Origin: Malacoraja senta
Taxonomy: Eukaryota
Assembly (NCBI GenBank): GCA_038087875.1
Contig: CM075990.1
Location: 16,680,001 to 16,744,000, forward strand
Reading direction: 5' to 3'
Length of the DNA stretch: 64,000 bases
This document shows positions 2,246 to 48,168 of this stretch, in pieces (the first letter of the stretch is position 1; every line of letters begins with the position of its first letter). Made by a program: the position numbers and the translations under genes. A model generated the notes under the pieces. It searched no databases and had not been told where the DNA came from. It worked only from the letters and a program-made list of their open reading frames with translations.

Positions 2246-3276
2246 AGCTGAAGGAGGGTTTCGGCCCGAAACGTTGCCTATTTCCTTCGCTCCATGCAAA
2301 GTTGAACAATCTCCACTATAGGAAATAGGCAACGTTTCGGGCCGAAACCCTATGGGTTTCGTCCCGAAACGTTGCCTATTTCCTTCGCTCCATAGATGCT
2401 GCTGCACCCGCTGAGTTTCTCCAGCACTTTTGTCTACCTTCGATTTTCCAGCATCTGCAGTTCATTCTTAAACAACGATCAGCCATGATTAAATGGCAGA
2501 GTAGACTTGATGGGCTGAATGGCCTAATTCTACTCCTTTGACTTACGAATGTTTGACCGCCACCTCCCCCTTCAACATCTGAGACCCAAGATGAGGAAAA
2601 AAGGCTTGAGATTGTACATTCTGGTCTATTTCTTTTTATTACATGAGATATCAATGCAAAATAAGGTGGGCAAATAATACTCACATGAGTGAACAAAGAT
2701 TGCCAGTGCTCATGCCGCAAAGAATAATTTCTGGGCTCAGATGTTCAAAGTCATTTTAATACTCACAAATGCAAGAGCAGATTTTAGTTGCATGCCACTC
2801 GACATCGAGTAGACCTGTCAGACATTGGCAGGCTGCAGTGCAGAACAGATGTGGTTCATCATGTAAGGGACTGGAGAGGTGCCAGATAATTAAACCAGTC
2901 CATTCTGTTGACTTGGATACTGTTTTGGATGGACCATAACATTTAAATAAATAGCTGAATACAACTGGACTCAATATGTGACTCACCCACTTCCATAAGG
3001 GAAGAGAAAGTAGCCATTCGATTACATACTCGATCCAAGGCCAGATCTCAGTTATTCTGTACTTGGATTGGTAAATATTTCATTGCCTGGCAAATATTTA
3101 TCCTGTACCATCGGAAAGAATGGCCCCGATTATTTTCTTTTCCACTGAAAACTAAAGGCAAACTGAAAATAGTCTCCCTGCTGCAAAAGTGAAGTTTGAA
3201 ACAATAACGTCACCCTTGTGGCACTGTAGCAAAGCTAAGCAAGCAGCGGCAAGTGATTCTGAGCAGCAGATAGATC

Positions 3277-19179: not shown

Positions 19180-20367
19180 CTATGCCAACCATTGAAGATG
19201 GTTTTACAGGGGGACGCCCCTGCTGACGTTATTGCAGAATTGGAACAGCTGGGCTGTTGGAAGGCTGATTCCGGATTGTGGCTTACGCCGGCCGGACAGA
19301 CCTGTATGACGGACCAGCTGGCTGCATGGGTTGTAGACTGCCTACATTTGGCCACTCATTGTGGCACGACCTTGCTGAACGATGCCTTAGTGCAGGCCTG
19401 GTGGCACCCGCGGCTTAAAGTCCTCGCCGCCCAGACCAGCGCATGATGCCTTACTTGTGCCGAATGCAATCCCGGCAGGGGCGTCCCGTGTCGAACGGGG
19501 CGGACTCCCTTGCCGGTAGGTCCCTTTGAGACCCTGCAATTAGACTTTATCGACCTACCGAAGTGCCAGTCGTACAGACATGTATTGGTTATTATTGATG
19601 GTTTTTCTAGATGGATCGAGGCCTTTCCCACCACCGATTGCACGGCCCCTACGGTTGTTTCCATTCTACTGCGTCACATTGTTCCCCGCTTCGGGGTGCC
19701 AAAGACCATTAGCTCTGACAACGGCCCCCACTTTATCGCTGCCATTAATAAAGAATTGTACTTCCAGCTGGGCGTAACGCAGCGTCTGCACTGTGCTTAT
19801 CGTCCTCAGGCGGCCGGAATGGTGGAACGAATGAACCAGACCCTTAAAACTAAGCTTGCCAAGTTAGTTGACCAATCTGGTTCCACATGGGTCAAAATGT
19901 TTCATGTCGCCCAGTTCCAGATAAGGGTAATGCCATGTGGCGCTGGTCGCCTTTCCCCTGCGGAGATTGTCTATGGCCGCCCTCTCCGTACCCCCTGAAC
20001 TGACATTATCCCCAGGCCTATGGAACTTCACCACATGTCCGAGGAAATGGTTTCCTATATCCTGGCCTTGACTAGGGCCCTGCGTACTATCCATGATGAC
20101 GTAAAGGCAACATACGTCGCTGACATTAATTTTCCCGTGGAAGGCCGCATTTCTGTTGGCTCATACGTCCTTATCAAGAATTGGACCCGGAAGAATGGCC
20201 TTTCGCCTCGATGGCTGGGCCCCTTCCAGGTTCTCCTTACCACGCCTACGGCTGTCAAGGTCGAGGGCCGGTCCGCTTGGGTACATTTACATCATTGTAA
20301 GGTGCTTGGTGACACCAAGCAAAGGAGGGAGAGGAAGGAGACGGAGGGACAGCAGCAAACCGGATAA
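19180..20367 (+). pseudogene. Endogenous retrovirus pol remnant: integrase (HHCC, D,D(35)E core, C-terminal GPF motif), class I (gamma/epsilon-like)
   Basis: One reading frame across ORFs 19144-19446, 19510-19998 and 20020-20367, broken by TGA at 19444 and 19996: HLATH...CLTC, LQLDFIDLP...IIDGFSRWIEAFP...SDNGPHF...ERMNQTLK, PRWLGPFQVLLTTPTAVKVEGRSAWVHLHHCK. Confidence 0.9.
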
Positions 20368-20636
20368 ATACGGATAAGTATGAAAACAACTGATCACATA
20401 TTAAAGCATTAAGTATGTCTATTCGCAGGAAGATGGCTGCCTGACTGGTCCAACTACCAGCGGTCCTATGTCTTCTGCTATATGGATGGGTGAGATCCTT
20501 GTTAACCCAGGAGGCAAGGAAGAGGAAGACAATGGGGAAAGTGGAGGAAAGGGGAAATGGTCAGATGACACATGTAAATATCTGCCTAAATGCTGCTTGC
20601 TGCCTTCTATGCTCTTTGTAATATATAGGAACCAAC

Positions 20637-20734
20637 ATGAAGATACTATGGGCGCTGGTGCTCACTTGTCTGACAGCCGGAATAACGATCTGGAGGCAGA
20701 CCAGACCAATGAACGAAAGTAGGAATAAGAGAAG
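20637..20734 (+). pseudogene. Probable ERV env (or accessory gene) N-terminus, truncated by CR1
   Basis: MKILWALVLTCLTAGITIWRQTRPMNESRNKRS: signal-peptide-like, 270 nt after the integrase stop; sequence becomes CR1 at about 20735. Confidence 0.45.
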
Positions 20735-21452
20735 CTGGATTTCACTCAATTCCTCCAACTCCTTTGACCCGCGGTCCCCTGCTATTTCCGGCAGATTATT
20801 TATGTCTTCCTTAGTGAAGACGGAACCAAAGTAGTTATTCAATTGGTCCGCCATATCCTTGTTCCCCATGATCAATTCACCTGTTTCTGACTGCAAGGGA
20901 CCTACATTTGTTTTAACTAATCTTTTTCTCTTCACATATCTATAAAAACTTTTGCAGTCAGTTTTTATGTTCCCTGCCAGTTTTCTTTCATAATCTATTT
21001 TCCGATTCCTAATTAAGCCCTTTGTCCTCCTCTGCTGGACTCTGAATTTCTCCCAGTCCTCTGGTAGGCTGCTTTTTCTGGCTAATTTGTATGCTTCATC
21101 TTTTGTTTTGATACTATCCCTCATTTCCCTTGTTATCCACGGATGCACTAGCTTCCCTGATTTATTCTTTTGCCAAACTGGGATGAACAATTGCTGTAGT
21201 TCATCCATGCAGCCTTTAAATGCCTTCCATTGCATATCCACCATCAACCCTTTAAGAATCAATTTCCAGTCTATCTTGGCCAATTCACGTCTCATACCCT
21301 CAAAGTTACCTTTCTTTAAGTTCAGAACCCTTGTTTCTGAATTAATTATGTCACTCTCCATCCTAATGAAGAACTCAACCATATTATGGTCACTCTTGCT
21401 CAAGGGACAACACACAACAAAGACTGCTAACTAACCCTTCCTCATTACTCAT
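20735..21452 (-). mobile_element. CR1 LINE ORF2 internal fragment (endonuclease C-terminus and linker)
   Basis: SDHNMVEF...NLKKGNFEGMRRELAKIDW...PWIT...KSFYRYVKRKR...MADQLNNYFGSVFTKED. Confidence 0.9.
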
Positions 21453-24629: not shown

Positions 24630-25530
24630 CAGGCTTGGCAACTGGCTTATTATAAAATTCTTGGAAGGTCTTCTCCCTGGACCATCCTGTCGTACCCAAG
24701 ATGTGATCCATTGGAACCTCCATGTGCCGTGCTGCCGATGTGGCTGCAGCCCTGGTGGAATGAGATTAAAAAATATCAGTATCCACCTCTGCAGCCCCCA
24801 AAACCTGTCGAAGCCATCTAGATATAGTTTGGGCCGATACCATGTTGTGAGGTCTTTTGTGGCTCACTAATAGTGCCAATTCTTGGCCTCTTACTTTAGC
24901 TGTTAGCTCAATGTAAAGTAACAGATGTGTCATAAGGCTGTATGATCCTGGCCTGTTTTGTTTTACCAGTTCATGAATATAAAATGTTATATCATATGTC
25001 ACTTTGGCCATCGAGTCCAGTCATAACTTGTGTAAAGATTGCACCCGCTGGGCCGAGACCAGTGCCATCAGCATTACCAATTTAAGGGTAAGTTTCTCCA
25101 GGGACAGGGACGTTGCTGGTGACCAACCCCGAAGCAATGTCAACACAATACTCACATCCCAAATGTGAGAGTATCTGGCCCTAGGGGGATTCGAGTTGAA
25201 TATACCCCTCATTAGTTTGGAAACCAAGGGGTGAGATCCCAGTGAATGGTGGTCGAATCCCCGCCACAAATAGGTCAATAGGGCACTCCTGGCGCTGTTG
25301 ATGGCACTGTAGCTAAGCCTTTCATCAAAATGAAGGTTAGCTAGGAACTCCAGGACATTAGTTACAGTGGCTGAGTTATACTCAACATTAATCCTGGAAC
25401 AATATAGTTCCCATTTCCTGATGTAAGTCAGGTACTGTTTTCTGGTAGACTCTCTTTGTGCTGCCATGATCATGTTGATGGTTCGGTCCGTCAGTCCAAG
25501 ATCCAGAAGTGACCTGTTCAAATTCTGCAA
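24630..25530 (-). pseudogene. DIRS tyrosine recombinase (disrupted)
   Basis: N-terminal binding domain (STRKQYLTYIRKW...LSYSAINSARSAL), catalytic R (VSAQRVQSL), HSTRAAATSAA and GWSREKTFQEFYNKPV read from the minus strand at about 24640-24765; stops and frameshifts present. Confidence 0.9.
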
Positions 25531-26105
25531 ATTAACAGATTAGTCCTGTCATGGCATGGATGACTTTCGCCAGTTACAGGATGGACCATCAAGACTGGTC
25601 TTTTAGTGACGGCCATACATGGTTCTGAAACCATGTCGAGAACCACAGGGAACCATGGCTGGGTAGGCCAGTCGGGTACTACCAAAATACCTGACGCAGA
25701 GTCTTGTTGTATTTTGCGTAAGACCCGACTGATGAGGCAGAAGGGGGGAAATGCATAGAAAAACAAATTTCCCCAGTGCAGCGAAAATGCGTCCATCGCT
25801 GCTGCCCCAGGGTCTGGTTCCCACGCAACATATGTCGGCAACTGGTGGTTAAGCCTAGATGCAAATAGATCGATATCTGGTGTTCCATATCTTGCTATGA
25901 TGTCTGCAAACACTTTAGGGTCCAACATCCATTCAGTGTTGTCATTACATTTTCGTGACCTGGTGTCTGCCACTGAATTAAGTTTACCTGGTAGGTAAAT
26001 AGCAGATGTCCAAATGTTTCTCTGGATACACCATTGCCAGATTGAATTGGCCAGATCATCACATGATATCGATCTGATTCCACCCATGTGATTAATATAA
26101 GCCAC
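25518..26105 (-). pseudogene. DIRS pol C-terminus: RNase H end and DNA N6-adenine methyltransferase-like domain
   Basis: AYINHMGG...YLPGKLNSVADTRSR...DIDLFASRLNHQLP...FYAFPPF...VVPDWPTQPWFP. Confidence 0.85.
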
Positions 26106-27565
26106 CGCAGTGGTATATCTATTTGCAGGCGAACATGCAAATGATGCATTTTTGAACAGTATGCCTTCAACCCATAGAATGCTCCCAACATTTCCAAATA
26201 ATTTATACCAAGTGTATAAAGCAAAGATGATTCATGCGCATCCCATCTGCCCCCACAACTGTAGATGGTGTTGGTGGCTCCCCAATCTTGAGCGCTGGCA
26301 TCAGTCTGTAATACAACTGACGGGTTGCTAATAATAATGGAGCTGAAGGAACGCCGAATGTTATGCGTCCACCATCGGAGTTCCAAAATAGCTTTTGTTG
26401 GTAATTGCATTGGTCTATCGAAATGACCAGCATGATGTTTAAGTGCTTGCACCTTTGCTCTCTGTAAATTCTGATAGTGCAAAGGTCCAAAGTGTGTCGC
26501 TGGAAAAGCAGCTACGATTTTGCCAATTACCCTTGCTACTAGTCTGATAGATGGTTGACTGATGAGAGCAAGGTTGCTGCAAACTTCCATTAATTCAGTT
26601 GCCTTTCCCCTAGGTAAAGTCACAGTCATGTGAACTGAATTAATGGTGAATCCCAAATAGTCCATAGTCATGGATGGTGTTAACTTTGATTTATCTGGAT
26701 GTATGATAAACCCCAGTTTCTAAAATAGACCTATGGTAGCTGAAACAGCTAATTTGGCTCATTCGTAGGTTTTACCCACGATTAGTATGTCATCTAAATA
26801 CGCCATGACTATATGTTTTTGTTTCCGAAGAAACGCCAGAGCTGGTTTCAGTAATTTGGTGAATAGTCTGGGGGTTGAGGTCAATCCATTAGGTAGTGCT
26901 TTGTACTGCCAAAGCTGCCCCATCCAGTTAAACTTCAGATATCGGCGGTGATCCTTGTGTATAGGCACCGAACAGTATGCATCTTTTAAATCGATGCATG
27001 CCATGAAGTAGCCTTTGGAAATCAATTGTTTGGCCGTGACAAAGGTATCCATTTTGAAGTGAGTATACTGCACAAATGTGTTCAATTGTCTCAAATCGAT
27101 AATGATGCGACATCCACCATCTTTTTTCTTTTTTGTGAAAATGTTTGACACAAATTCTCGAGACTCATGTTGAGATCTCTCAATTACACCCTTAGTATAA
27201 AGCCTCTTAATTTCAGCATGACCATCCAACTTCTCTTGTTGTGATAGAATAAATGATCTGATGGGTGCATGCTGAACCGGAGGAAGGTGTTTGTTTTCGA
27301 CTTCAATTTCATATCCTTGAACACTATGCAGTAGATAAGAATCAGAGGTTATTGAGCTCCATGCCTCCCAAACCCAGTGTAACCTACCACTAACAAGTGT
27401 ATCCATTGCACCCGCTATGTCCTGCGAGGAACCAGACCCACCTACCTCCATGGTTACCAGTGGGGTGTTCATCTCTTCTTCTTCTGTTTCTTGGCCGATT
27501 GAGGTGCTGAAATTCGGGGTTGGCGCATCTTCCACGAAGGTCGCTCTGGGCCGCGGTCTAAAAAA
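25895..27565 (-). pseudogene. DIRS reverse transcriptase and RNase H (disrupted)
   Basis: KKKDGGCRIIIDLRQLN, IDLKDAY, LPNGLTSTPRLFTK, AYLDDILI; DYLGF; LQTDASAQDWG...INYLEM; stop at 26759 and a frameshift near 26110. Confidence 0.92.
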
Positions 27566-28653
27566 GACCTTTGTCCTTGAGTTGCGGCCTTCGAACTTTC
27601 ACCAGTTTCGACGTGACGTGGCCTGCTGGTGGATGCGTAGGGGTGCTGTCGCCAAGGTATTTTGCCCGATGCCTTGATGAGCCCGGCGGCTTTCGCCTCT
27701 TCATCCAGGTCTTTAACCTGTTTGGACAGGTTGCCCCCCAATAACAAAATTGGCGGCGGTGTGGTGTTGGTCTTGCACAGAGCTGCAAATTTGGGGTTCA
27801 AGGCTGGGCTGATGGAGTTCTTTCGGAAACAGTTGATCTCGAACTGTGTATTGCAGAGCATCGCCAGCGTATCTTGCTGAGCCTCTGTCATTTCCGTGTC
27901 ATCCACCGACCGGGCAAATGCTGTAATCCCCGTTGTTAAAATTTGAGGATTTTCTGCATTTGTACCTCCTGTGCCCTTACACCTGCACCAATATGTCCCC
28001 AGATGGAGGGATTCACTGCTGGGACATTCAGTGAAATACAGTTCCCTGGTGCCAGGTATTTTGCAGTGGTTTCATTAAGTGCCTGTTCCTGCAATTGATG
28101 GGTTGAAAGGTAGTCAATGCTGGCTGCTAGTTGTTGTTTCAGCGGATGCCCTGACTGTGGAGGCACCGCAAACTTTTCACCATGCCCAGCATCTTCTCTT
28201 CTGGCACCCCCAGCACACTTGAAGTATCTTCAGCCAACCCTTGTTCCGAGTCAGCCCAGAAATGACTCCCAATGCTCCCCTCTGTCGAGGGAGATGCATT
28301 GTGCAGCCCTGAAAAAGGTACTGCCATGGGCGTCCTAGGAGGCCCGTAGTGACATGACTCCTTCTCCCGGAGTTTGTCACGGTGAAGCAGTTGCTCCACC
28401 AGCCGCTCCAAACGTGAAATGCGACTACTGTCGCTGTCAGCCGGCGGCGTTTGCTCATGGCCCGATACATCGGAGTCCATGAGCGTGTCCCTCCTTTTGG
28501 CGTTCCTGTCAGCCTGTGGTGACCCAGGCTGCACAGGTGCCGGGACAAAGATTGCGATGCTGCAGTCGGCCGCTGCTGGCTCCCGGTACTCTCGCGGTCC
28601 TCCTCAGCCAGTTTCTTAGCGGCCCGTTTGGACTTGGTACGGGTCCTGTCCAT
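27469..28653 (-). pseudogene. DIRS gag-like ORF1 (frameshifted pieces)
   Basis: ORF pieces 28177-28653, 28139-28534, 27936-28166 and 27469-27906 (YLAPGNCISLNVPAVNPSIW...RKNSISPALNPKFAALC...LLGGNLSKQVKDL) directly upstream of RT. Confidence 0.7.
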
Positions 28654-29269
28654 CGTTGGTCTTCCTGTGAACAGAAAGACACCCGAAAAACGACCTCAGA
28701 GTAAGTAACTTACCTGTAGGTCTCCGGGTTTCAGCTTACCGCTGCGGGGAACGCTCCTCCCCGCCTGTCGCTCTCAATGCACTAGACGATATGTCGTGCA
28801 TGCGCCCTGGCGGGCTCGTCACGTAGTCACTCAGGTGACTCCGAAGTAAAATTCTGTATTGAGCTCGAATCTTCCTGTTCCTGCTTAAAGTCTGCAGGCT
28901 CTTTATTAATCTGTGTCATAATCCACATCAATTTCTTCCCTCTATCAATGTCATATTTTAAGTTATGGAAGTAGATGCCAAGAATTCATTAACACCCTGG
29001 TGTTAAATCATGACTTCATGTCTAATAAAGGCTGAAACACACTTCTAGATGATACTAACTGTATTAACAGGCATGTGTTGTACTTCCATAGACCTTGCCA
29101 AAAACACAAGGTCAAGTTTACAATAGAAACACTTTGCTCCATCTTTCTGAGTACATGTTGAGCCATCAAAGCATCCCGAAATCCAATGTGCAATTATACA
29201 AAAGCGAAAAATGAATTCCTATAATTTCAATTCCATCTCTTGTGTAAGAGGTTTTTCTATCGTAATATG

Positions 29270-29569: not shown

Positions 29570-31630
29570 TATCATAAGAGTACAATGCTGCTCCGTCAGC
29601 GGTGGAGCAGCGGCAGAGGACACCACGGCCACGCTTGGCCAGGCCGACCCTGCAACGCCGCCAGGACAACAGACCTACATGGTCAGGTCAAGATGCCTGC
29701 ACTTACAACAACTGGGACTTGAATATGGCACCAAATTGGCGACTCTGTATACTGTCTCTGTGTACTACTGCTAAACACTTGTACTGTATCTGAGATGCCT
29801 ATTTCAGATGTATCTAAGTGTTTATGCATTGTGATACTTGTACTGAACTGTATACAAAGATGAATTTCACTGTACCTCAGTGCATGCAGCAAATAAAGTA
29901 CCATACCATTCCAATAGATTATGAAAGATGAGAAAAGATATTTCATAATGTCAGTACAAGCTTCACTTAACTGTAAGCACAGCGATGGATTGGTGTTAAT
30001 CCTCTAGCACTAGTATTGGAGCCATCAAACGTTCTACCATTCAAAGATGTCCCGTTGATCTGCATTCCAACACCATATAATCCTAAGCCATTAACTCTAT
30101 TGCCTGAGTTGCGTTTCTCAGTTTCCCTTTAAGATTCAGAACATGAACTCAGGCACCCATGTCAGATGGGAGATAATTGACCTGAAACATAAACACTGTG
30201 TTTTCTTACAGATGCTACCTGATCTACTGAGGATTTTCATCCATTTTAATTATCATTTCAGACATTCCTGGGGCTAAATGTCCTTTTCCTTGAATCTAAG
30301 TATTTACCACAGAAGAAATAGAAAGATCTCATGGTTAAGATATCAATGGTATTGCAGGAATTGCAAAGGCTAATGTCATTGTCTGAATCTGAAGATGGTT
30401 CTCGGCCTGAAGCATCATCTCCAGAGCCTCAATCTGAAGAAGGGTTTCGGCCCGAAACGTTGCTTATTTCCTTCGCTCCATAGATGCTGCCTCACCCGCT
30501 GAGTTTCTCCAGCATTTTTGTGTATCTCCAGAGATGCTCCCTGACCCGCTGAGTTACTCCAGCATTTTATGTCTGTCTTCGGTACAACATACTCCCTGAG
30601 TTGACCCTCCATGTTGGACTTTTTGGTGACATGATTTTGATCAACATTACTGCAGGTTGTTGACTTTTTTTGTGATTCGCCTCTGTCTTAAATAAGTACC
30701 TAATCATGTTTAGCTGGGTACCTTAAATAAAATATATAAAGACGGACCATGTTCTTTGTGCTTGTTGTCCTTTCCTTCTTAAGTGCCTGTGCGTCCACCA
30801 TTCTACAATTCTCACCTCCACACTTTGGCCTGGGTTGAATATAGTTGAGCCTACAGTGGGGTTGAACCTTCTTGAATATAGTTGGACCACTAATCACCCA
30901 TTCAATGCCCTCCTGACCTGTCAATGGCAGCACAGCGTTTGTGAAGTCAGGAGTTTGTGTCACTCATTAACACCACGGAGAACATCAACTAAAGTCAGAG
31001 AGTCACACAGCACGGAGACAGGCCCTTTGGCCCAACACTAGTCCCACCTGCCAGCGGTTTGGCCCATATCCCTCGAAAATATTCTTGTCCAACTCTGCTG
31101 AATAAAGCTTGATTGACGGTCCCTAGCTTTGTAACAAAGTCACCATTGATTCCAAAATCTATGCGTGGACAAATAGTTCCACAGGATTAATAAGTTTGTA
31201 AGTTATCTGAGCAGAATTAGGCCATTCAGCCTATCAGGTCTACTCTGCCATTCAATCCTGGCTGATCCATCTTTCCCTCTCAACCCCATTCTCATTTCTT
31301 CTCCCCATAACCCCTGACCACCGTGTTAAAATTAGCCACCAGCATTGGACAGGAGTTGGAGCAATGGCTGATATTGACAACACTGCCCCATCTCCCCCCC
31401 CAGCCCCTTGCCCCTGTTGTGCACCTCAGCAGGCTCATTGGGCCCATGTGGAATAGCACGTGAGATTGGAACTCTAGCGACTTCAATATCCTCTTTCCAC
31501 CTGCAACCGGGGACAATGTCTGAAGAAGGGTCTCGAACCAAAACGTCACCCATTCCTTCTCTCCAGAGGTTCTGCCTATCCCGCTGAGTTACTCCAGCAA
31601 TTTGTGTCTATCTTCGGTGTAAACCAGCAT

Positions 31631-31684
31631 GGGGTGGAAGATTGCAACCTTCACGTGGTCCACCCTGTTTCGACGAATGCAATC
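31631..31684 (+). ncRNA. Minimal HDV-like (CPEB3-type core) self-cleaving ribozyme
   Basis: P1 GGGGTGG/CCACCCT (G1-U wobble), P2 GATTGCA/TGCAATC, P3 ACC/GGT, L3 TTCACGT, GT, short TTCGA loop in place of P4, J4/2 CGAA with putative catalytic C at 31674. Confidence 0.85.
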
Positions 31685-31770
31685 AACCCGGCGTGCACAA
31701 TCAAATAAGATCAAATAGAACAAGTTGTCCTACAACTTTAGGATGTGCACGCCATACGCAAGAAGGAGAA
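31631..31770 (+). mobile_element. Short non-autonomous retroelement with 5' HDV-like ribozyme and Vingi-like 3' tail
   Basis: 12-bp TSD GTAAACCAGCAT (31619-31630, 31771-31782) inside a Penelope-like pLTR; 3' end CTACAACTTTAGGATGTGCACGCCATACGCAAGAAG matches 34147-34182. Confidence 0.9.
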
Positions 31771-31887
31771 GTAAACCAGCATCTGCAGTTCCTTCCTACA
31801 CAGGTTCTACCCGGCTGTGCATCATCCCGGCCCCATTAGCTGTAGCAAAGTATCTAGAAATGTCACATCAAGAGAGAGTTAAATACA

Positions 31888-32037
31888 GCTCTTAGGGCTA
31901 AGGGAATCAAGGGATATGGGGAGAAGGCAGGAACGGGGTACTGATTTTGGATGATCAGCCATGATCATATTGAATGGCGGTGCTGGCTCGAAGGGCCGAA
32001 TGGCCAACTCCTGCACCTATTTTCTATGTTTCTATGT
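31888..32037 (+). mobile_element. CR1 LINE 3' end with (TTCTATGT)n tail
   Basis: GGGATATGGGGAGAAGGCAGG...GAAGGGCCGAATGGCC..CTCCTGCACCTATTTTCTATGTTTCTATG. Confidence 0.85.
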
Positions 32038-32497
32038 CTCTATCTTCCGCAGCTGACTGAGTGACAGGCCAGCGAAATGCAGAGCGCAGCTAATTACTGT
32101 GAGCACTCAGCCGGACCCAAACTGCAGTGGGCGCATGCTTGATTCGAAGGAAAGTAGCAGCATCCATGCGGCGTTGGGGCTCAACAGACTGTGCAGTTCC
32201 TTATTAAAACCGAGGACTGATTATGGTGCAGTTTAAACAAGAAGACGATCGTTTTATTTTAAGGTGCTTTGAGAGAATCGGAGCATCGTTGCAGATTAAA
32301 CACCGAACTGCAGATGTTGACTCGTTAATCTGACCAGGAGCTCCCCCATATTTCCTTATCAGTGGAAACTGAGAAATGAGACTTTCATTAGAAATAAGCA
32401 GCAATGTTTGGTTTCTTCACAAAATGTATGACGTAACAGTCCAGGGGCTTGCTAAATAGCATCTAAGTACATCCCAGCCTGAGACACATGAAGCCCA

Positions 32498-32932
32498 TGA
32501 CCGCGTGGGTTTTCTCCGAGATCTCCGGTTTCCTCCCACATTCCAAAGACGTACAGGACTGAAGGTGGTGCAGGAAAGAACTGCAGATGCTGGTCTAAAT
32601 CGAAGGTAGACACAAAATGCTGGAGTAACTCAGCGGGACAGGCAGCATCTCTGGAGAGAAGGAATGGGTGACGTTTCGGGTCGAGACGTTTCGGGTCGGG
32701 TCTGAAGAAGGGTCTCGATCCGAAACGTCACCCATTCCTTCACTCCAGAGATGCTGCCTGTCCCGCTGAGTTACTCCAGTATTTTGTGTCTACCAGGTTT
32801 GTAGGTTAATTGGCTTGGTATAAATATAAATTGTCCCTAGTGTGTACAGGATAGTGTTAGTGTGCGGGGATCGCTGGTCAGTGCAGACTTGGTTGGCCGA
32901 AGGGCCTGTTTCCGCGCTGTATCACTAGACTA
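32498..32932. mobile_element. V-SINE split by an inverted Penelope-like pLTR pair (about 32571-32794)
   Basis: SINE stops at GACGTACAGG and resumes CAGGTTTGTAGG; the sequence in between is a palindrome of pLTR sequence. Confidence 0.8.
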
Positions 32933-33568
32933 AGTTCATAATTTTCCCACATTGGTCAAGACAGCTGAAAAAACCCTCTTCCATTTAGATTATGTGAAGA
33001 GAGAGCATTCTCCCCAGTAATTATTGAAGATAAATGTAAATGTTGAGATTGCATGTGTATGTAAACAGGTTTTCTTTGTCAACGCCATAACTTCAGATTT
33101 AGATTTATTATTGTCATGTGTACTGAGGTATGTGCTTTGTACGCTCTCCAAACAGATCAGACAGCAATCAGACTACGATCAGTCTGAAGAAGGGTCCCGA
33201 TCCAAAATGTTACCTATCGATGTTCCCCAGAGATGCTGCCTGACCAACTGAGTTACTCCAGCACTTTGTGCCTTTTCTTTTTAAACCAGTATCTGCAGCT
33301 CCTGGATTAATACAATTATACAATTGTATAATTAATATACAATTATACAATCAAGTCCGATTCAAGTACAATAGATGGAGCAAAGTGCAGAATATAGTTC
33401 TCAGCATCGCAGCACATCCGTTCCATTGACAATGACATGTCATAGACATAGATTAGACAAACTAAACTGAACTGAACAATGTCCAATGTCCGCAATGGGG
33501 TTGAGGTGAATCAGACTGTGTCCTGGCAAAGGGAAAGATACAGATTTGATTATATAGTTCTCAGCATT

Positions 33569-34187
33569 GCAACGAGTTGACACTGTCCTTAACTCCGCAA
33601 TGCGGGTCATCACAGGGAGGCTTAAGTCAACACCTTTGCAGTGGCTCCCTGTCCTCTCTCATATCACCCGTCCCAGCATACGCAGAAGGGAGAGGATGTT
33701 GAAAGATTGGTGCACCACCGGGGCCAACTCTGACCTTCCCATCCATGCTGACTCGAACAATCTGCCCAACATGCGCCTGAAGCCCTGCAAACCCTTCTGG
33801 CCTTCCGTTAAATCCCTGGAAGACTTTGACTCCGAGTCTGAGTGGCGCAGAGCCTGGAAAGATGCCAACACCAACAACGGAGAGGTCATCACAGACCCCA
33901 CAGTGAAACCACCGGGTTTTGACCTCCACCGCAAGCAATGGCTAACCCTGAACAGAATCCGCACCCTCCATGCAAGAACTGCACGTGGGGGATGACAGAC
34001 AGCCCTGCTTGCGACTGCGGACATCCAGACTAGACCAGACCATCCCACACATCGTGAATGACCGCCCACTGAGGCTTTTCCCCGGGGGCATCAAAGCCAT
34101 CCACCCAGTAACTGATGCTGTCCTGGCCTGGATGTCCGCCCTTGATCTACAACTTTAGGCTGTGCACGCCATACGCAAGAAGAGGAG
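33569..34187 (+). mobile_element. 5'-truncated Vingi/Ingi-clade (I group) LINE: C-terminal ORF with CCHC-like knuckle and 3' tail
   Basis: VDTVLNSAMRVITGRLKSTPLQWLPVLSHI.RPSIRR...PPGFDLHRKQWLTLNRIRT; after a frameshift WG..DSPACDCGHPD.TIPHIV..(R)PLRLFPGG; short (GAA/GAG) tail; flanking GCATT repeat (33564-33568, 34188-34192). Confidence 0.75.
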
Positions 34188-34723
34188 GCATTACAGCGCA
34201 TTATTATAGAATCTGGAGTCTGTCCCTTTAAAAATGGTCAGATTTAAATCTCTGCTTCTGTTCCTATTAATGATGTGAAAGAGCTCTGGGAGTGCTGACA
34301 ATTTCAGCAGCTGTAATATATTCATGGCTGGAGATTCAGCTTGATGTCATTGCTGCTGCCGTCCCACGAGGCATCATTAAATCTGTTCAGACTGAGTAAT
34401 GGCTGTGAATGAATGGCCACAGAACGAGCTTCCTTCTTCAAAAAAACAAAACCCACGCTAGGCCTTGGGCAGTGGAAGATTTTCCGCGATTCCCCTCTTA
34501 AAATAATCTTGACATTAAATACGGTACAAATTGCAGACTCCTTTCGAAGGGAAAGGAAGCCAGGAATTGTAACCCTCGGCATTTCATAAAACTAAGATTG
34601 CCGATATATTTCTCAAATTATTTTACTCTTGCGTTCTGCAACTTTCAGGAACAGATTCTTCCCCATATCAGGCTTCTGAACGGTCCTTCCATAAGCTAGG
34701 ATACTGTCCGATTCACCTCTACT

Positions 34724-35417: not shown

Positions 35418-36618
35418 TGGTAATTTTCAATTTTATTTGCCAAAGCAACAATAGTTAAAATGGCCTCAAATCCTCCTCTTCCACAACATCACTGCCTTCA
35501 AGGTAAAGACCAATTTAAACATGACTCCAACTAAGCACCTGAGTAAAGGATTGTATCTTGAAGAAGGTTCCTGACCCCAAACATTGTCTTTCCACTTCCT
35601 CCAGAGATGCTGCCTGACCCCACTGAGTTACTGCAGCACTTTGTGTTACGGCTTATCCCCATGGTTACCCCGGGTTTTACCCCCATCAGAGACACACACC
35701 GCTCCTCTCCCCATCTCACTTAACAAACTTCTTTTGTCTCCTGAAGTGTCATGAACATGAAACATTAACTACGCTTCTCTTCCCACAGATGCAGCCTGAC
35801 CGGCTGAGCATTTCCAGCATTTTCTGTTTATATTTTAGATTTCCAACAGTTGCAATATTTTTGAGATACACTAGATTGTACTCTATACTTTTAAGGCAGT
35901 GAAATATTCATTTCCCACTTGACAGAAACACCCGGCAGGTCAGGCAGCATCTATGGAGAGAGAAACAGTGTTAATGCTCAGGTTGTTAACCTATCTATGA
36001 TTTCTCTACTTGTTCGAACATGACCGAAGGTAGATACAAAATGCAGGCGTCACTCAGCAGGTCCAGCAGCAACTCTGGAGAGAAGATCTCCAGCATTTTG
36101 TGTCTTTCTGGAAGGCTTGGTTGTTGTGCCGAACAAAGTCTGGACCTACAATGTGATGTTAAGAACAATTTATTATAGATGCCGGCAAGTGAGGACGTAG
36201 GTACATTGAGGACTCCTCTTCCTCTTGGACATCCAGTGCTGGCCTTCTTCAAACGCTCCTCTCCATCTTGGACACTCCCTACAAGCCTTCTACTCTCTCT
36301 CTCTCAGCCATTTCATTCCCCTCCGCCATCACGGCATTGATCCTTAAAGGGTCTACTAGGGGCAAAACTCGCTTTAGCTAATGAACCTAGCAGCATGTCT
36401 TTGGGATGTGGGAGAAAACCAGAACATGCAGACAAAACCCACGCAGTCCCAGAGAGAACACGCAAGGTCCTCATAGTCCATAAAAACAAAGTGCTGGAGA
36501 AACACATTATCTGTGGAGAGAAATGGACAGACAATGTTACAGTTTGGACAGGTTTTCTGGTTCCCTCCACAGATGAGTTGGATCTCCATCTTTGGAGCGC
36601 AGGATGATGAGGAATGAT

Positions 36619-40770: not shown

Positions 40771-41349
40771 TTAAAAGGTAGACGGAAAGCAAAGGTTTAG
40801 AGGAATACGGGCCAAACGGGACTAGCTACAATGAGCATCTTGGTTAACATGCACAGTTGGGGCAAAGAGGCCTGTTTCTATGCTGAATGGTCCTTTGACT
40901 CAATACTGTGTGACATCAGAGGGCCAGAACCATACAGACATCTGGAACTAGAGATACAGAGCAGGGAACAGTCCCATCACCCAAGCTCAGTTCCATCATG
41001 CAACAACCTGCTGTGCCTGGTTAAATGAGCAGTATTTTGACCAAGAAGGAGACTGCATAATATAATTCGTGCTGGGATTTTAATAGCATTCTGTTGGCAA
41101 AACCACTTTCTGCCTTGGAGGCAAAGCTCTCCCAAGGTACAAGCAGCTACACAGACACTCACACTCCGCAGAGTCGCCAGCTTGCAAAACATTGCACGTT
41201 TGAGCTCTGTTTAAAGAAGATCGGGCGGCACGGTGGCGCAGCGGTAAAGTTGCCGCCTCACAGCGCCAAAGACCCGGGTTCAATCCTGACAAGCGTAGAT
41301 GGAGAGCCTTGGTCGGCATGGGCAAGTTGGGCCGAAGGGCCTGATTTCC

Positions 41350-42828
<1,479 letters not shown>

Positions 42829-45800
42829 CCAGCACTCTGCGCTATCCCAGTTACATAAGGCAGGGTGGATGCTGCGTGGCTGTGTGGATGGGAAGCAGGT
42901 TAGTGGTGCTGCATTGCACTACTTTCCAAGGCAGGAGGGAGCACAGCTGTGTCCTTGTCCTGCACCGCGGTTCGCAGCGCTCCTGTCAAAGGGAACACAT
43001 GGACAATTGGGTAACGTCACACAATGCAAGCTCGATACCCAGCTGCTGATCTCTGGTGCCTGCGTGGAGACAACAGCAGCAATCAATTATCCTCTCTTCC
43101 AGCAATCAATATGAGGTAGAATTAAAATTCATTCCCTCCTGCGTCTGCCCGTCACTTGCTTCACATCCACGCTTTATTGCTTAATTGTAAAACCATCTTC
43201 TCACACAGTTTAACGTTACCACAACCATGCAGAGAAATAGGGACACACGAGTCCTCCACACTGTCCTTGACTTAAACAATTCCCTTTCTCTTAGCCCAGC
43301 ACCTTGCATTTCAAAACTTTATCTTCCATTCTCTTAACAATAGTTTCTAGCAGCAGGGCGTGTAATCCTCACAACCACACTTTATTAATTACCTTCCAAC
43401 CTCCAAGTGCTTTGAGACTGACTTAGCCACATCTACATTTTTATTGTGTCAGAAGGAACTGCAGATGCAGGTTTACACCGAAGATAGATGCAAAATGCTG
43501 GAGTTACTCAACCGATCAAGCAGCATCTCTGGAGAAAAGGAGGTGATGAGGAATTTCTTTAGTCAGATGGTGGTGAATCTGTGGAATTATTTACCAAGGA
43601 AGGCTGTGGAGGCCAGGTCAATGGATATTTTTAAGGCAGAGATAGATAGATTCTTGATTAGAACGGATGTCAGGGGTTATGGGGAGAAGGCAGGAGAACG
43701 GGGTTGAGAGGGAAAGATAGATCACCGAAGATTGAGCATTGAGCCTGGCCGAACATTTGAAACATAGATGATGGCCATGAAAGAAGAATTGAATGGCGGA
43801 GTGGACGATGGGGCGAATAGTCTAATTCTGCTCCTGTCACTTATGTACAGGAATAGGTGACGTTTGGGTCAAGGCCCTTCTTCAGACTCCTGAAACATCT
43901 CCTATTATTTTTCTCCACATATGCTGCCTGTCCCGCTAAGTTATTCCAGCATTTTGTGTCTACATTTGTATTATTTTCTTCACTGATTTCAAATGCTCTG
44001 TCCATCACAACAACATGAGATAGCAGGAGAGACCACTCAGCCTCTCAAACCTGCCCTGCCTTTCATTATGGTGGTGGCCAATATGCCCCAGGCCTCAGCT
44101 CTTTACTAGTTACCCACAACAACACCCTTTCAAAGATGAATCGACCTCCACTTTAAATATCTCTTATGAGCTGGTCTTCACACCCCATAGGAGCAGAGAT
44201 CTCCAGAGGTTGATCAGTCTCCGGGTCTCAGTTTTAAATGACTGGTCCATCTAATCTTGTAACTATTTCCGAAGATAGACACAAAAAGTTGGAGTAACTC
44301 AGCGGGTCAGACAGCATCTCCGGAGAAAAGGAATGGATGACGTTTCGGGTCAAAACTAATCTGCAGTTACTTCTTACACACATTGTAATGATGTCCCCTC
44401 ATTGGGGGCAGCCGACAGGTGAAGAACATCTTAACATCTGCCCTGTCAACCCCTCACAGGATCTCATATGTTTCAAGCCTCCGATATCCCTGCGTTCCTC
44501 CAAATGCCAGAGACCCAGGCTGAATCCTGACTATGGGTGCTATCTGCGTAGGGTTTGTATCTTTTTCTGTGTTCTCTGGGTGCTCCGATTTCCTCCCACA
44601 TTGCCAAGGCGTGCGGGTTTGTGGGTTAATTGGCATCTGTAAGATAGAACCAGTGTACAGGTGATCGCTGGTTGGCGTGGACTTGATGGGCCGAAGGGCC
44701 TGTTTCCATGCTGTACCTCTAAAACTAATCTGAACTAATTCGGACTTCCCGATCACCTCCAGATTTGATGATCGGATCCTTGACACCTGCGCCATCAATG
44801 GTAATCCTAACCTTTCACGAACCCTGTGCCCATCCCTCCTGCATCGTTCCTCTATGCCCAGCTCCCCGTCTAAGCTTTCAGTTGCATGCATTCACATCTC
44901 TTTACGTCAGCCTGACCGCTTTGTTCAGCGAAGTCCCCCGAACCACCTTGGGACGGTTTGCAACGTCAAAGATGAGCATAAAAGGCCTTGGATAAAGTGA
45001 ACGCTCACAGTCTTTTTTCCCAGGATAGAGGATACTAAAACTAGAGGGCACAGGCTTATAGCGAGAGGGAGAGATTTAAGAGGAACCTCAGGCAACAGTT
45101 TTCGCTCAGAGGGTAGTCCGTACCTGGAACGAGGTGCCTGAGGAACCTATAGAGGTAGATACATTTATGACTTTTATGACTATTGGACAGATATATGGAT
45201 AGGAGAAGTTTAGAGGGATATGGGCCAATGGAGGCAAATGGGACTAGCCCAGTAGCTAACTTGGTCAGCATGGACAAGGTGGGCTGAAGGGCCTGTTTCA
45301 GTGCTGTACAACTCTACGACCCATAGCAAGAACCAGCACAAGACCAAAACTAGGGTGTAAGACATACTAAAGTGTAAAGTACTTGTCCTCTGGAACAAAG
45401 AACAGTCCAGCACAAGAACAGGCCCTTCGGCCCACAAATTCTGAGCCGAACTTGATGCCAAGACCAACACATCTTGCCAGCACATAATCCATATCCCTCC
45501 ATTCCCTGCATATTCATGTGATCTGTCTCTACTGTGTTATACAGTTACTTAAGTTGTAGACAGCGAAGAGGACTATGTAAAACAAGACAGAATGCAACTA
45601 GGAAGACAGCAAGAAAAATAGGCATAAAATGCTGGAGCAACTCAGTGGGCCAGGCGGCATCTCTGGAGAAAAGGAATAGGTGGCGTTTTGGGTCGAGACC
45701 CTTCTTCAGACTAGGTAAGACAGGTAATTGAAAACTTTAACATTGACGTGGGTTTCAACGAGCAACTGGGAGGAGGAAACGTGGAGAGACCTGGAGAGGA

Positions 45801-46220: not shown

Positions 46221-47728
46221 AATTGCAGTACTGTAAATATATCTCTGATGGCTCCAAGTCTCCAGAAGGAGAGACCACGAGGGGGGTTGAAATTGGGCAA
46301 CCTAAAAAACGATGGGGAAAATATCAAGAGTAATAATCCATAATGAGGTTCAGCAGCGAACGGAGTCAGTGAAGGATTGTTGGGATCAATCAATCAATCA
46401 GATTTATTCATCACATACACAATGAAGGTGCAGTGATATGAATTTGCCAGCAGCGGTACAATCAAAAACGAACACACAATACACAATAAAAATGTAACAT
46501 AAACGTCCACCACAGCAATCTTCACTGTGGTGGAAGGCACAAAGTACAGTCAGTCCTCCTTCATTCTCCCCCCCCCGTGGTCGGGGCCATAAACCTCCGC
46601 AGTCGCCAGATGTACAGGCCTTCTCTTCTGGAAGGTAAGTCCCGAATCAGAGTGTTCTCTTCGTGCAGATATGAGGCTTGAAATACAGCCCAATAAATCC
46701 ACTATTGTAAACAGAACTGACAGCAAAGAAAATGAGGACACTTCAACCGACACAGTAGAGAATCGGAAAAAGCAGTTAATTCAGAAGAAATGCAAAGACT
46801 CAAGAAGGGATTTTGATACCAAATATTTTCCTTCCCCGAACCTGGTACACAATCGTTCTCCTGGCCCTTTGTGATAATTGATGCCTGAAAAAATGATGCC
46901 TTGTGCAAATCACATTCTTAAACCAGTCATCGACAAGGGCAGCTAACCTCAAATTATGGGTAGACTGAGACACACTGAAGGACACAGAAAGACAGAGAGA
47001 GGGAAAGAGAAAGGGGGGAGAGAGAGCGAGAGGGGAGTGGGAACGAGGGGGTAAGAAAGAAAGAGGGAAAGCCAGAGAGAAAGAGAGTAGAAAATAGAAA
47101 GCGAGAGAGAGAGAGAGAGAGAGAGAGATAGAAAGAAAGTGAGAGTGAAAGACTGACCCCCCCCCCTTCTAGTGCCCCACCTGCACCCATTTCTCCCCTC
47201 CCCCTCCCGCCTACATTCCTTCCTCTGGCTTCACAACTCTTCTATCCTTATCTCACACCTTTAGTCTCCTCTTTAGTCTGTACAAGTCTCCTTTCACCAT
47301 CATTCATCCAATCCAGATTCAGAAGCATTATGTTGCCGCATTGGTAAATTCAGAGCTCTGAATGAATAAGAGAGAGACCTGTTTCATTGTCATCAAGATA
47401 GCTGGGGAATATAACTGATGTTAATTAAACCTGGAATAATTCACTAATATCAAGAATGCTAACCACTGAAATGAAGGACTGTTGTAAACTTATATCCACT
47501 GTGATCTGTTTCAGTGAAGGTACCCTGTTGCTGCGTTTCCTTGTCTGGCCAACATGTGATCTTAACTCACATGTGTCTTCTAAACCAATCCAAGAAATAG
47601 CCCAGTATTTCCTACCGCCTCTCCATCCCACCCTCTCCCAGTTCAAGGAATATTGGGAAAGGGCAGCATCCCCCAATCTTGTCACAGACACCCTTGTGTC
47701 AACAGTGAATTGCCGGCTGCGACAGTGT

Positions 47729-48035
47729 GAGCCTCGGTGGCAGCAGGAGCCTTGGCGGTGGCAGCAGGAGCCTCGGCGGTAGCAGCAGGAGCCTCGGCAG
47801 CAGCAGCTGGAGCCTCGGCTGCAGCAGGAGCCTTGGCGGGAGCAGCAGGAGCCTCGGCAGTAGCAGCAGGAGCCTCGGCAGCAGCAGCTGGAGCCTTGGC
47901 TGCAGCAGAAGCCTTAGCGGCAGCAGCAGGAGCCTTGGCGGCAGCAGCAGGAGCCTTGGCGGCAGCAGCAGGAGCCTCGGCAGCAGCAACATGGCCCTCG
48001 GCGGCAATGGGAGCCTCGGTGGCGGTGGGGCCTCG
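47729..48035. repeat. GC-rich minisatellite, 18/21-bp unit GAGCC(T/C)(C/T)GGCGGCAGCAGCAG
   Basis: About 14 tandem units; unit lengths are multiples of 3, giving low-complexity ORFs in several frames. Confidence 0.9.
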
Positions 48036-48168
48036 CGGTCGATGAGAGTTGGGGGACCGCTGTGAAACCGCTGTGAAAAGACCCGAAACGTCACCTATTC
48101 CTTCGCTCTATAGATGCTGCCTCACCTGCTGAGTTTCTCCAGCATTTTTGTCTACCTTTGGTTTGTAA

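What the first reader, a model, noticed from the sequence alone, without database searches (positions are those of the whole stretch)
31730..34192. The mini-element's likely partner LINE (Vingi/Ingi-like) lies 1.8 kb away and shares its 3' tail
Seen: the mini-element ends CTACAACTTTAGGATGTGCACGCCATACGCAAGAAG (31730-31765). The truncated LINE at 33569-34187 ends CTACAACTTTAGGCTGTGCACGCCATACGCAAGAAG (34147-34182), one mismatch in 36 nt, and both carry a short GAA/GAG tail. The LINE peptide (ITGRLKSTPLQWLPVLSHI..., LNRIRT...CDCG...H) resembles the C-terminus of Vingi/Ingi-clade ORFs. Known: non-autonomous retroposons borrow LINE RT through shared 3' ends, as RIME does with ingi and NARTc with L1Tc, which share both termini with their partners. 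Inference: this is an autonomous/non-autonomous pair, and full-length copies of the LINE should start with the same ribozyme.
Basis: partly seen in the sequence, partly recalled or inferred. Interest (0 to 1): 0.8.

Follow-up and report, generated by a model that had tools for sequence, protein, structure and literature searches.

The report
Ribozyme-headed retrotransposon whose ends pair up
A 140-base jumping element with thousands of copies is a cut-down form of a 3-kb Vingi-type retrotransposon, keeps both of its ends including a predicted self-cutting ribozyme, and those two ends are complementary in this and related families, which likely lets the RNA close into a loop that the copying enzyme would recognise.

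Summary
The shared tail is real (35 of 36 bases). The mini-element (31631-31770, 12-bp target duplication) has at least 4,577 genomic copies; the LINE family has at least 184. An older mini subfamily matches the LINE for about 80 nt at the 5' end and 41 nt at the 3' end, and four independent deletion junctions exist. The LINE is Vingi-type: one ORF of about 1,000 aa, APE plus RT, no RNase H. The 1.8-kb spacing is chance, and this copy is a dead 5'-truncated fragment. Such pairs are a known kind. Two features were not found in my literature searches. (1) A short segment just after the ribozyme is complementary to the segment just before the 3' A(C/T/A)ACG-GAA tail, in the same register but with different sequences across nine Vingi-like elements (permutation 1 of 362,880; weak in three). 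(2) 16 of 71 LINE copies carry the RNA's 5' end inverted, mostly primed at nt 61-122; two other families with the helix rarely do (1 of 50). Cleavage, pairing and horizontal transfer are untested.

The parts
31631..31770 (+). Non-autonomous mini-element, main (younger) subfamily: LINE 5' end, 13-20 nt filler, LINE 3' end, GAA tail
   Evidence: 40 of 40 listed genomic matches at 94-100% identity; 4,577 exact matches of a mini-specific 23-mer; target duplications of 7-13 bp (median 11) in 24 of 37 copies
31619..31630 (+). Left target-site duplication of the mini (12 bp), inside another abundant repeat
   Evidence: empty form of the host repeat is common in other runs
31771..31782 (+). Right target-site duplication of the mini
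31631..31684 (+). Predicted HDV-like ribozyme, 54 nt: P1 1-7/30-36, P2 10-16/48-54, P3 17-19/27-29, L3 UUCACGU, one-pair P1.1 (C22-G37), P4 reduced to U-UUCG-A, catalytic-position C at 31674
   Evidence: descriptor match; 0 of 600 shuffled chunks and 1 other (loose) hit in 128 kb; helices covary across families; no Rfam match at gathering score; cleavage not tested
31690..31699 (+). 5' arm of the predicted end-to-end helix (GGCGTGCACA)
   Evidence: pairs 10 of 10 with 31744-31753; present in MFE and centroid folds; 9 or 10 of 10 pairs in 33 of 38 mini copies
31744..31753 (+). 3' arm of the predicted end-to-end helix (TGTGCACGCC), directly before the ATACG motif and GAA tail
31730..31765 (+). 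Tail shared with the LINE: last three codons, stop, 3' UTR, start of GAA repeats
33571..34187 (+). 5'-truncated, broken copy of the Vingi-type LINE (family A): last about 615 nt of a 3.1-kb element
   Evidence: 89.8% to positions 2478-3039 of copy L073; three frames, internal stop; 184 exact matches of a LINE-specific 23-mer
34147..34182 (+). LINE tail shared with the mini; ORF stop at 34156-34158, 3' helix arm at 34161-34170
33564..33571 (+). Probable left target duplication of the LINE fragment (8 bp, matches 34188-34195 at 7 of 8)
   Evidence: read by eye

Best explanation
The mini-element is an internally deleted, non-coding derivative of a 3.1-kb Vingi-type LINE (family A) that keeps the LINE's first about 80 and last about 40 bases, and it was likely copied in trans by that LINE's endonuclease and reverse transcriptase. 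Inferred steps: read-through or internal transcription; the predicted HDV-like ribozyme would cut just before G1 and set the 5' end; the segment after the ribozyme likely pairs with the segment before the 3' ATACG-(GAA)n tail, closing the RNA; the LINE protein would bind this end and prime reverse transcription at a nick, leaving 7-13 bp target duplications. Both ends are kept in every deletion derivative, which is what the paired-end model would require. In family A the nearby single-stranded 5' UTR was likely also primed by the second nick (twin priming), giving copies whose 5' end is inverted. The two elements in the window are independent insertions.
For: Shown: LINE copies L068 and L098/L099/L164 run from ribozyme to tail between target duplications. 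An older mini subfamily is LINE-identical to about nt 80 and shares 41 nt at the 3' end; 21 of 30 loci with a LINE-type 5' motif are of it, and L410/L414, L405/L406/L419 and L423 are three further deletion junctions that all keep both arms. Non-CpG divergence: LINE 3.6% (68 copies), old mini 3.2% (21), main mini 2.2% (22). 0 of 30 loci from five other Vingi-like families match the mini. Protein: APE and RT Pfam hits, no RNase H hit; colinear with P0001 residues 22-1012. Ribozyme fold upstream of the ORF in relatives, with P1, P2, P3 changed on both sides. End helix: cognate arms pair 7.6 of 10 against 4.8 for swapped arms, 1 of 362,880 permutations as good; duplex energy 40 of 362,880, and 6 of 40,320 without family A. 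The published alligator SINE2-1_AMi (Vingi 5' part, 'unknown' 3' part) has a 5-bp stem in the same register before ACACG (supplement passage; read by eye, not used to set the register). Inversions: 17 of 73 independent copies, 16 primed at nt 330 or less against 2.95 expected, 13 at nt 55-125; target duplications enclose the whole structure.
Against: No cleavage, expression, binding or structure probing data. In 3 of 8 elements tested (L250, L302, L236) the end duplex is no stronger than duplexes with windows from their own ORF. The register was chosen after seeing five of the nine elements, some of the nine are related, and elements lacking a detected ribozyme or an end (L219, L220, L221, L223, L233, L261, families E and F) were left out. 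Families C (9-bp helix) and D show 5'-end inversions in 0 of 22 and 1 of 28 copies, so the helix alone does not cause them. Whole-mini folding energy is not exceptional (z -1.99 for the window copy, -0.33 to -1.70 for three others). The main mini subfamily looks younger than the average LINE copy, and no intact family A copy was found (longest open frame 442 aa).
Confidence: 0.8

Rival explanations
1. The pair is real, but the end-to-end complementarity is a by-product of template switching or snap-back during reverse transcription (or chance), with no role as an RNA helix; each end works on its own, the ribozyme for processing and the 3' tail for protein binding.
For: The family A core GTGCAC is a palindrome, which eases chance pairing; three of eight elements show no excess over their own background; inversions and fold-backs that could copy one end onto the other do occur; R2 SIDEs are explained in print by independent 5' and 3' functions (PMC3414825 passages).
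Against: The arms differ in sequence between families yet keep one register against two landmarks; G-U pairs are tolerated (L229, L250), as in RNA helices; the most abundant mini subfamily closes the one mismatch of the LINE helix; all four deletion junctions keep both arms.
Confidence: 0.3
2. The mini arose from family A, but its large later expansion was driven by another Vingi family in the genome (such as D or C) that recognises the shared ACACG/ATACG-GAA end.
For: Main mini 2.2% divergence against LINE A 3.6%, D 1.6%, C 0.7%; younger families with long open frames exist; their 3' ends share the terminal motif.
Against: No sequence match of the mini to those families; main mini is older than D and C by the same measure; short sequences make the 2.2% noisy (quartiles 1.1-2.9%), and LINE subfamily structure would inflate 3.6%; the old mini subfamily matches the LINE's age.
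Confidence: 0.15
3. The mini is a chimera of an unrelated ribozyme head and the LINE tail, or the two window elements are parts of one rearranged insertion.
For: About 20 nt in the middle of the main subfamily are not in the LINE; the two lie 1.8 kb apart on one strand.
Against: The LINE carries the same head; clean deletion derivatives exist; each window element has its own target duplication and unrelated repeats lie between them.
Confidence: 0.02

Closest known systems
Vingi-1_EE and its non-autonomous derivatives (hedgehog; Kojima et al. 2011, seen only as cited in PMC5786205 passages)
   Same: Vingi-type LINE with short derivatives made by internal deletion that keep the 5' and 3' ends.
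   Different: [quoted passage not shown] End pairing and 5'-end inversions are not mentioned in the passages seen. The 2011 paper was not available to read.
L1Tc/NARTc and ingi/RIME of trypanosomes (PMC4035085 passages)
   Same: Short partner shares a 77-nt 5' hallmark holding an HDV-like ribozyme, and the 3' end, with its LINE; here the shared 5' part is 77-80 nt.
   Different: L1Tc encodes RNase H, family A does not; no sequence comparison was possible; a promoter role of the head is untested here.
R2 SIDEs of Drosophila (PMC3414825 passages)
   Same: Ribozyme plus 3' end is enough for a non-autonomous element that is not a pol III SINE.
   Different: R2 is site-specific and RLE-type; SIDEs are rare, whereas this mini outnumbers its LINE about 25 to 1 by exact 23-mer counts.
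Twin-primed 5' inversions of mammalian L1 (PMC2912911, PMC4245944 passages)
   Same: Inverted 5' segment inside the target duplication, short microhomologies at both junctions, similar frequency (17 of 73 here; 30.9% in L1).
   Different: PMC4245944 found inversions almost only for L1 in human cells. Here they occur in a Vingi-type element and 16 of 17 take the first 330 nt of the RNA, with up to 2.8 kb missing in between; that L1 inversion points usually lie close to the truncation point is recalled, not read.
Vingi-2_Gav and SINE2-1_AMi of crocodilians (PMC5786205 main text and supplement passages)
   Same: Their printed 5' ends have the same layout as family C of this genome and fit the HDV fold by eye; SINE2-1_AMi has a stem in the helix register before ACACG.
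   Different: SINE2-1_AMi has a tRNA head; the paper calls its 3' part unknown and does not describe a fold in the passages seen.

Membership tests
Vingi clade LINE | Compact element (about 3.1 kb) with a single ORF of about 1,000 aa | tested here: met
   L073 is colinear with P0001 residues 22-1012 over about 2.94 kb, ATG about 110 nt from the 5' end; Vingi-2_Gav is 3,128 nt
Vingi clade LINE | APE endonuclease followed by RT | tested here: met
   PF14529 E 4e-8 and PF00078 E 9e-28 in natural open stretches
Vingi clade LINE | No RNase H domain (separates Vingi from Ingi, per PMC13708176 passage) | tested here: met
   No RNase H Pfam hit up to E 1 in P0001 or E 0.1 in family A pieces; no room for an insert in the colinear match
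Vingi clade LINE | RT groups with named Vingi elements, apart from Ingi | tested here: inconclusive
   Quick tree (careful search unfinished): family A and P0001 fall in one clade (SH-aLRT 99) with family C, whose 5' end resembles Vingi-2_Gav. No named Vingi or Ingi protein was available as a row
Ingi clade LINE | RNase H domain after RT | tested here: not met
Bipartite non-autonomous LINE (RIME/NARTc/SIDE type) | Shares both termini with an autonomous LINE of the same genome | tested here: met
Bipartite non-autonomous LINE (RIME/NARTc/SIDE type) | Dispersed copies with target duplications and a variable tail, no ORF | tested here: met
Bipartite non-autonomous LINE (RIME/NARTc/SIDE type) | Mobilised in trans by the partner's protein | not testable with these tools
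   Inferred from shared ends and overlapping ages
Classical SINE | Head derived from tRNA, 7SL or 5S RNA | tested here: not met
   The head is the LINE's own 5' end; no Rfam family matches the window
HDV-like ribozyme | Nested double pseudoknot P1, P2, P3, P1.1 with 7-nt L3 and C-N-R-A before the P2 3' strand | tested here: met
   descriptor match, rare by chance, covariation across families. Element numbering and the U20-G25 and C75 roles are recalled
HDV-like ribozyme | P4 helix | tested here: not met
   Only U-UUCG-A between P1 and the catalytic C; relatives have 20-55 nt there. Minimal HDV-like ribozymes exist (search listing); that they lack P4 is recalled
HDV-like ribozyme | Self-cleavage 5' of G1 dependent on the catalytic C | not testable with these tools
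   Indirect only: 26 of 37 minis begin GGGG at position 1; C44 kept in 26 of 27

The most novel reading that the evidence does not exclude
Vingi retrotransposon RNAs close into a loop: a short arm right after the 5' ribozyme pairs with the 3' UTR directly before the priming tail, and this two-ended helix is the cis signal for the reverse transcriptase. That would explain why Vingi (and perhaps Ingi and RTE) spawn derivatives that keep both ends, and why family A is primed a second time right beside its ribozyme, giving a 5'-end-targeted kind of inversion not seen in L1.
Probability: 0.45. Interest if true: 0.8.

Novelty: new variant of a known kind. Interest (0 to 1): 0.58.

Why it matters
The pair alone is a new member of a known kind. 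What lifts it is the anatomy. PMC5786205 says that only a few LINE groups make derivatives with both ends 'for unknown reasons'; a conserved helix joining the two ends is a concrete, testable reason. Vingi-1_Acar is used in RNA-only gene-insertion platforms whose donors carry both UTRs and often insert truncated (PMC13708176 passages), so compensatory tests are feasible now and would guide donor design. The 140-nt element may be a natural minimal template. It also places at least 4,600 predicted minimal HDV-like ribozymes in one vertebrate-sized genome, and shows twin-priming-like inversions outside L1.

Tried and rejected
Adjacency as evidence: rejected, chance suffices. The idea that the end helix by itself causes 5'-end inversions: not supported, families C and D have the helix but 0 of 22 and 1 of 28 such copies. 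Inverted pieces copied from mini RNA in trans: disfavoured, they carry LINE-type letters and run into LINE-only sequence. A hairpin at the mini's junction as its origin: the older subfamily shows the LINE's own letters there, so the 7-bp form arose later. Rfam: no match. PDB: only L1, R2 and group II intron RTs. Atlas: unnamed APE-RT clusters only. Viral contigs: no relative; prokaryote contigs: 4 probable contaminants, two used as tree rows. Horizontal transfer: 16 DNA or unlabelled runs from 10 coded organisms hold 0.30-0.35 of the LINE's words, and seven of these organisms were laid and hold the head or the mini, but names are coded, so patchiness is unknown; no RNA holder listed. The DNA ends of the closest relative P0001 (71% identity, unnamed) were not seen, so its ribozyme and helix remain open. 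The permutation used a wrongly picked family A arm and was redone. Earlier scan notes: none. Kojima 2011 and Ruminski 2011 were not held; they, Repbase reports and patents may already describe a Vingi ribozyme. Searches with no relevant description of end pairing or of this element.

Full report
Observation. The two tails differ at 1 of 36 bases and nothing else in the window comes close. The mini-element spans 31631-31770 with a 12-bp target duplication; the LINE fragment spans 33571-34187, is broken by a stop and frameshifts, and matches the end of an intact 1,019-aa protein, P0001, at 61%. The window lies in a 1.94-Gb assembly. Its repeats look like those of a cartilaginous fish; this is a recalled impression, no call names the host.

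Copy numbers and adjacency. A mini-specific 23-mer occurs 4,577 times, a ribozyme-core 22-mer 4,645 times and a LINE-specific 23-mer 184 times; all are lower bounds. From raw counts 1.6 mini-LINE pairs within 1.84 kb are expected by chance, about 7 with assumed corrections. Two of 68 distinct LINE loci sampled by position have a separate mini in their flanks, in either orientation. The neighbourhood is therefore uninformative.

The LINE. Natural copies define a 3.1-kb element (family A) with a 5' UTR of about 110 nt and one ORF colinear with P0001 residues 22-1012. APE and RT domains are detected, RNase H is not. This is the Vingi architecture as stated in PMC13708176 (passages). In a quick tree of 37 rows (35 different; the careful search did not finish) family A is sister to P0001 and sits in one clade, support 99, with five other families from this genome and with arthropod-named proteins. 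One of those families, C, has a 5' end closely like Repbase Vingi-2_Gav as printed in the supplement of PMC5786205. No named Vingi or Ingi protein was available, so the RT test is indirect. No intact family A copy was seen among the loci fetched.

L068 and L098/L099/L164 run from the ribozyme to the tail between target duplications; L073 and L072 are colinear but lack a few 5' bases. None of 30 loci from other families matches the mini. A search with the LINE-type 5' motif returned 362 places; of the first 30, 21 are an older mini subfamily identical to the LINE to about nt 80 and sharing 41 nt at the 3' end, 6 are three other deletion junctions, and 3 are inverted LINE 5' ends. Non-CpG divergence from each column's commonest letter is 3.6% for the LINE, 3.2% for the old mini and 2.2% for the main mini; families D and C give 1.6% and 0.7%. 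All samples were conditioned on an exact motif. The minis thus arose repeatedly by internal deletion while the LINE was active; the later main expansion leaves some room for help from another family.

Ribozyme. Nucleotides 1-54 fit an HDV-like fold with P4 reduced to one pair and a UUCG loop. The descriptor hit 0 of 600 shuffled chunks and one loose site in the rest of the window. It also hit just upstream of the ORF in six metagenome relatives (L229, L245, L250, L256, L281, L284, of 22 examined) and in families B, C, D and G, with P1, P2 and P3 changed on both strands. Rfam gave nothing. [quoted passage not shown] Activity is inferred.

End-to-end helix. In the mini, nt 60-69 are the reverse complement of nt 114-123, which lie directly before ATACG and the GAA tail; the helix appears in both predicted folds and keeps 9 or 10 of 10 pairs in 33 of 38 copies. 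The LINE form has 9 of 10. In eight other elements with both ends, the segment starting 4-6 nt after the first six bases of the P2 3' strand pairs with the segment before the equivalent motif: 10, 7, 9, 6, 5, 9, 9 and 4 of 10. Swapped ends give 4.8 on average; 1 of 362,880 permutations reaches the observed sum, 40 by duplex energy, and 6 of 40,320 without family A. Against this: the register was set after seeing five elements, some are related, elements without a detected ribozyme or end were left out, and L250, L302 and L236 do not beat windows from their own ORF (11, 16 and 16 of 38 as strong). As an outside check, the published SINE2-1_AMi has a 5-bp stem starting 6 nt after P2 and ending before ACACG (supplement passage, read by eye). 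Searches for such pairing found no relevant paper; the library lacks most subscription papers, Repbase reports and patents.

Inversions. Of the first 76 listed LINE matches 75 were held, 73 after removing two duplicates, and the 5' end was seen in 71. Seventeen are 5'-inverted; in 16 the inverted piece comes from the first 330 nt of the RNA, in 13 it starts at nt 55-125, and it usually runs to within 20 nt of the RNA start before joining a 3' fragment up to 2.8 kb further on. Uniform priming predicts 2.95 such cases; 0 of 200,000 simulations reach 16. Target duplications enclose the whole structure and short microhomologies are visible in most junctions (by eye), as in twin priming of L1 (PMC2912911 passages). 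PMC4245944 found inversions almost only for L1 in human cells (passages). The hot spot lies beside the 5' arm, which fits a looped RNA, but families C and D show it in 0 of 22 and 1 of 28 copies (Fisher p 0.001), so something particular to family A is also needed; the missing P4 is one untested candidate.

Distribution. Ten coded organisms hold similar shares of the LINE; the seven laid hold the mini or the LINE head with the same variant sites and subfamilies, which points to expansion in a common ancestor. The closest named proteins are from arthropods at about 50% identity. This is compatible with an old horizontal entry but does not test it.

Verdict. Shown: the shared ends, the deletion origin, the architecture, the complementarity and the inversion pattern. 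Inferred: cleavage, pairing in the RNA, trans-mobilisation and twin priming. The pair is of a known kind (Vingi-1_EE derivatives, RIME, NARTc, SIDEs); the end helix and the 5'-end-targeted inversions make it a new variant worth a bench test. Papers seen: passages of PMC5786205 (with supplement passages), PMC13708176, PMC2912911, PMC4245944, PMC4035085, PMC3414825 and PMC3391268; others as search listings only.

Noticed in passing
L298-L340 (G000): At least six more Vingi-like families (B-G) in the same genome, copies 94-98% alike, some with stop-free frames of about 1,000 aa (L307, L311, L316); family D has 786 and family C 157 exact 3' motif matches. Good natural material for assays.
   Followed up: partly
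L307 and L311, 5' ends: Family C copies begin with several tandem repeats of the first half of the ribozyme before one complete ribozyme.
   Followed up: no
L155, L103: Two inverted pieces stop at nt 63-64, inside the 5' arm of the predicted helix, rather than near the RNA start.
   Followed up: no
mini copies L119-L148, L431-L460: The base before G1, the last base of the target duplication, is T in 23 of 37 copies, suggesting a target preference.
   Followed up: partly
L302, L305, L236, L251, L256: A subgroup ends in TCGC-(TAAA/GAAAT) instead of ACG-(GAA) and has only a 4-6 bp end helix.
   Followed up: partly
window 25024-28695, minus strand: Several open frames that read like a DIRS-type retroelement (RT, RNase H, methyltransferase-like and recombinase-flanking parts); label recalled, not tested.
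   Followed up: no
window 19447-19995, plus strand; 20564-21430, minus strand: An integrase-like fragment of an LTR element and a CR1-like LINE fragment; labels recalled, not tested.
   Followed up: no
window 41083-43111; about 36330-36600; 47685-48107: A 2-kb GT-rich microsatellite, a run of N, and a 21-bp tandem repeat with open frames rich in Ala-Pro or Leu-Pro.
   Followed up: no
L294-L297: LINE-like sequence in four prokaryote assemblies, probably eukaryotic contamination.
   Followed up: no
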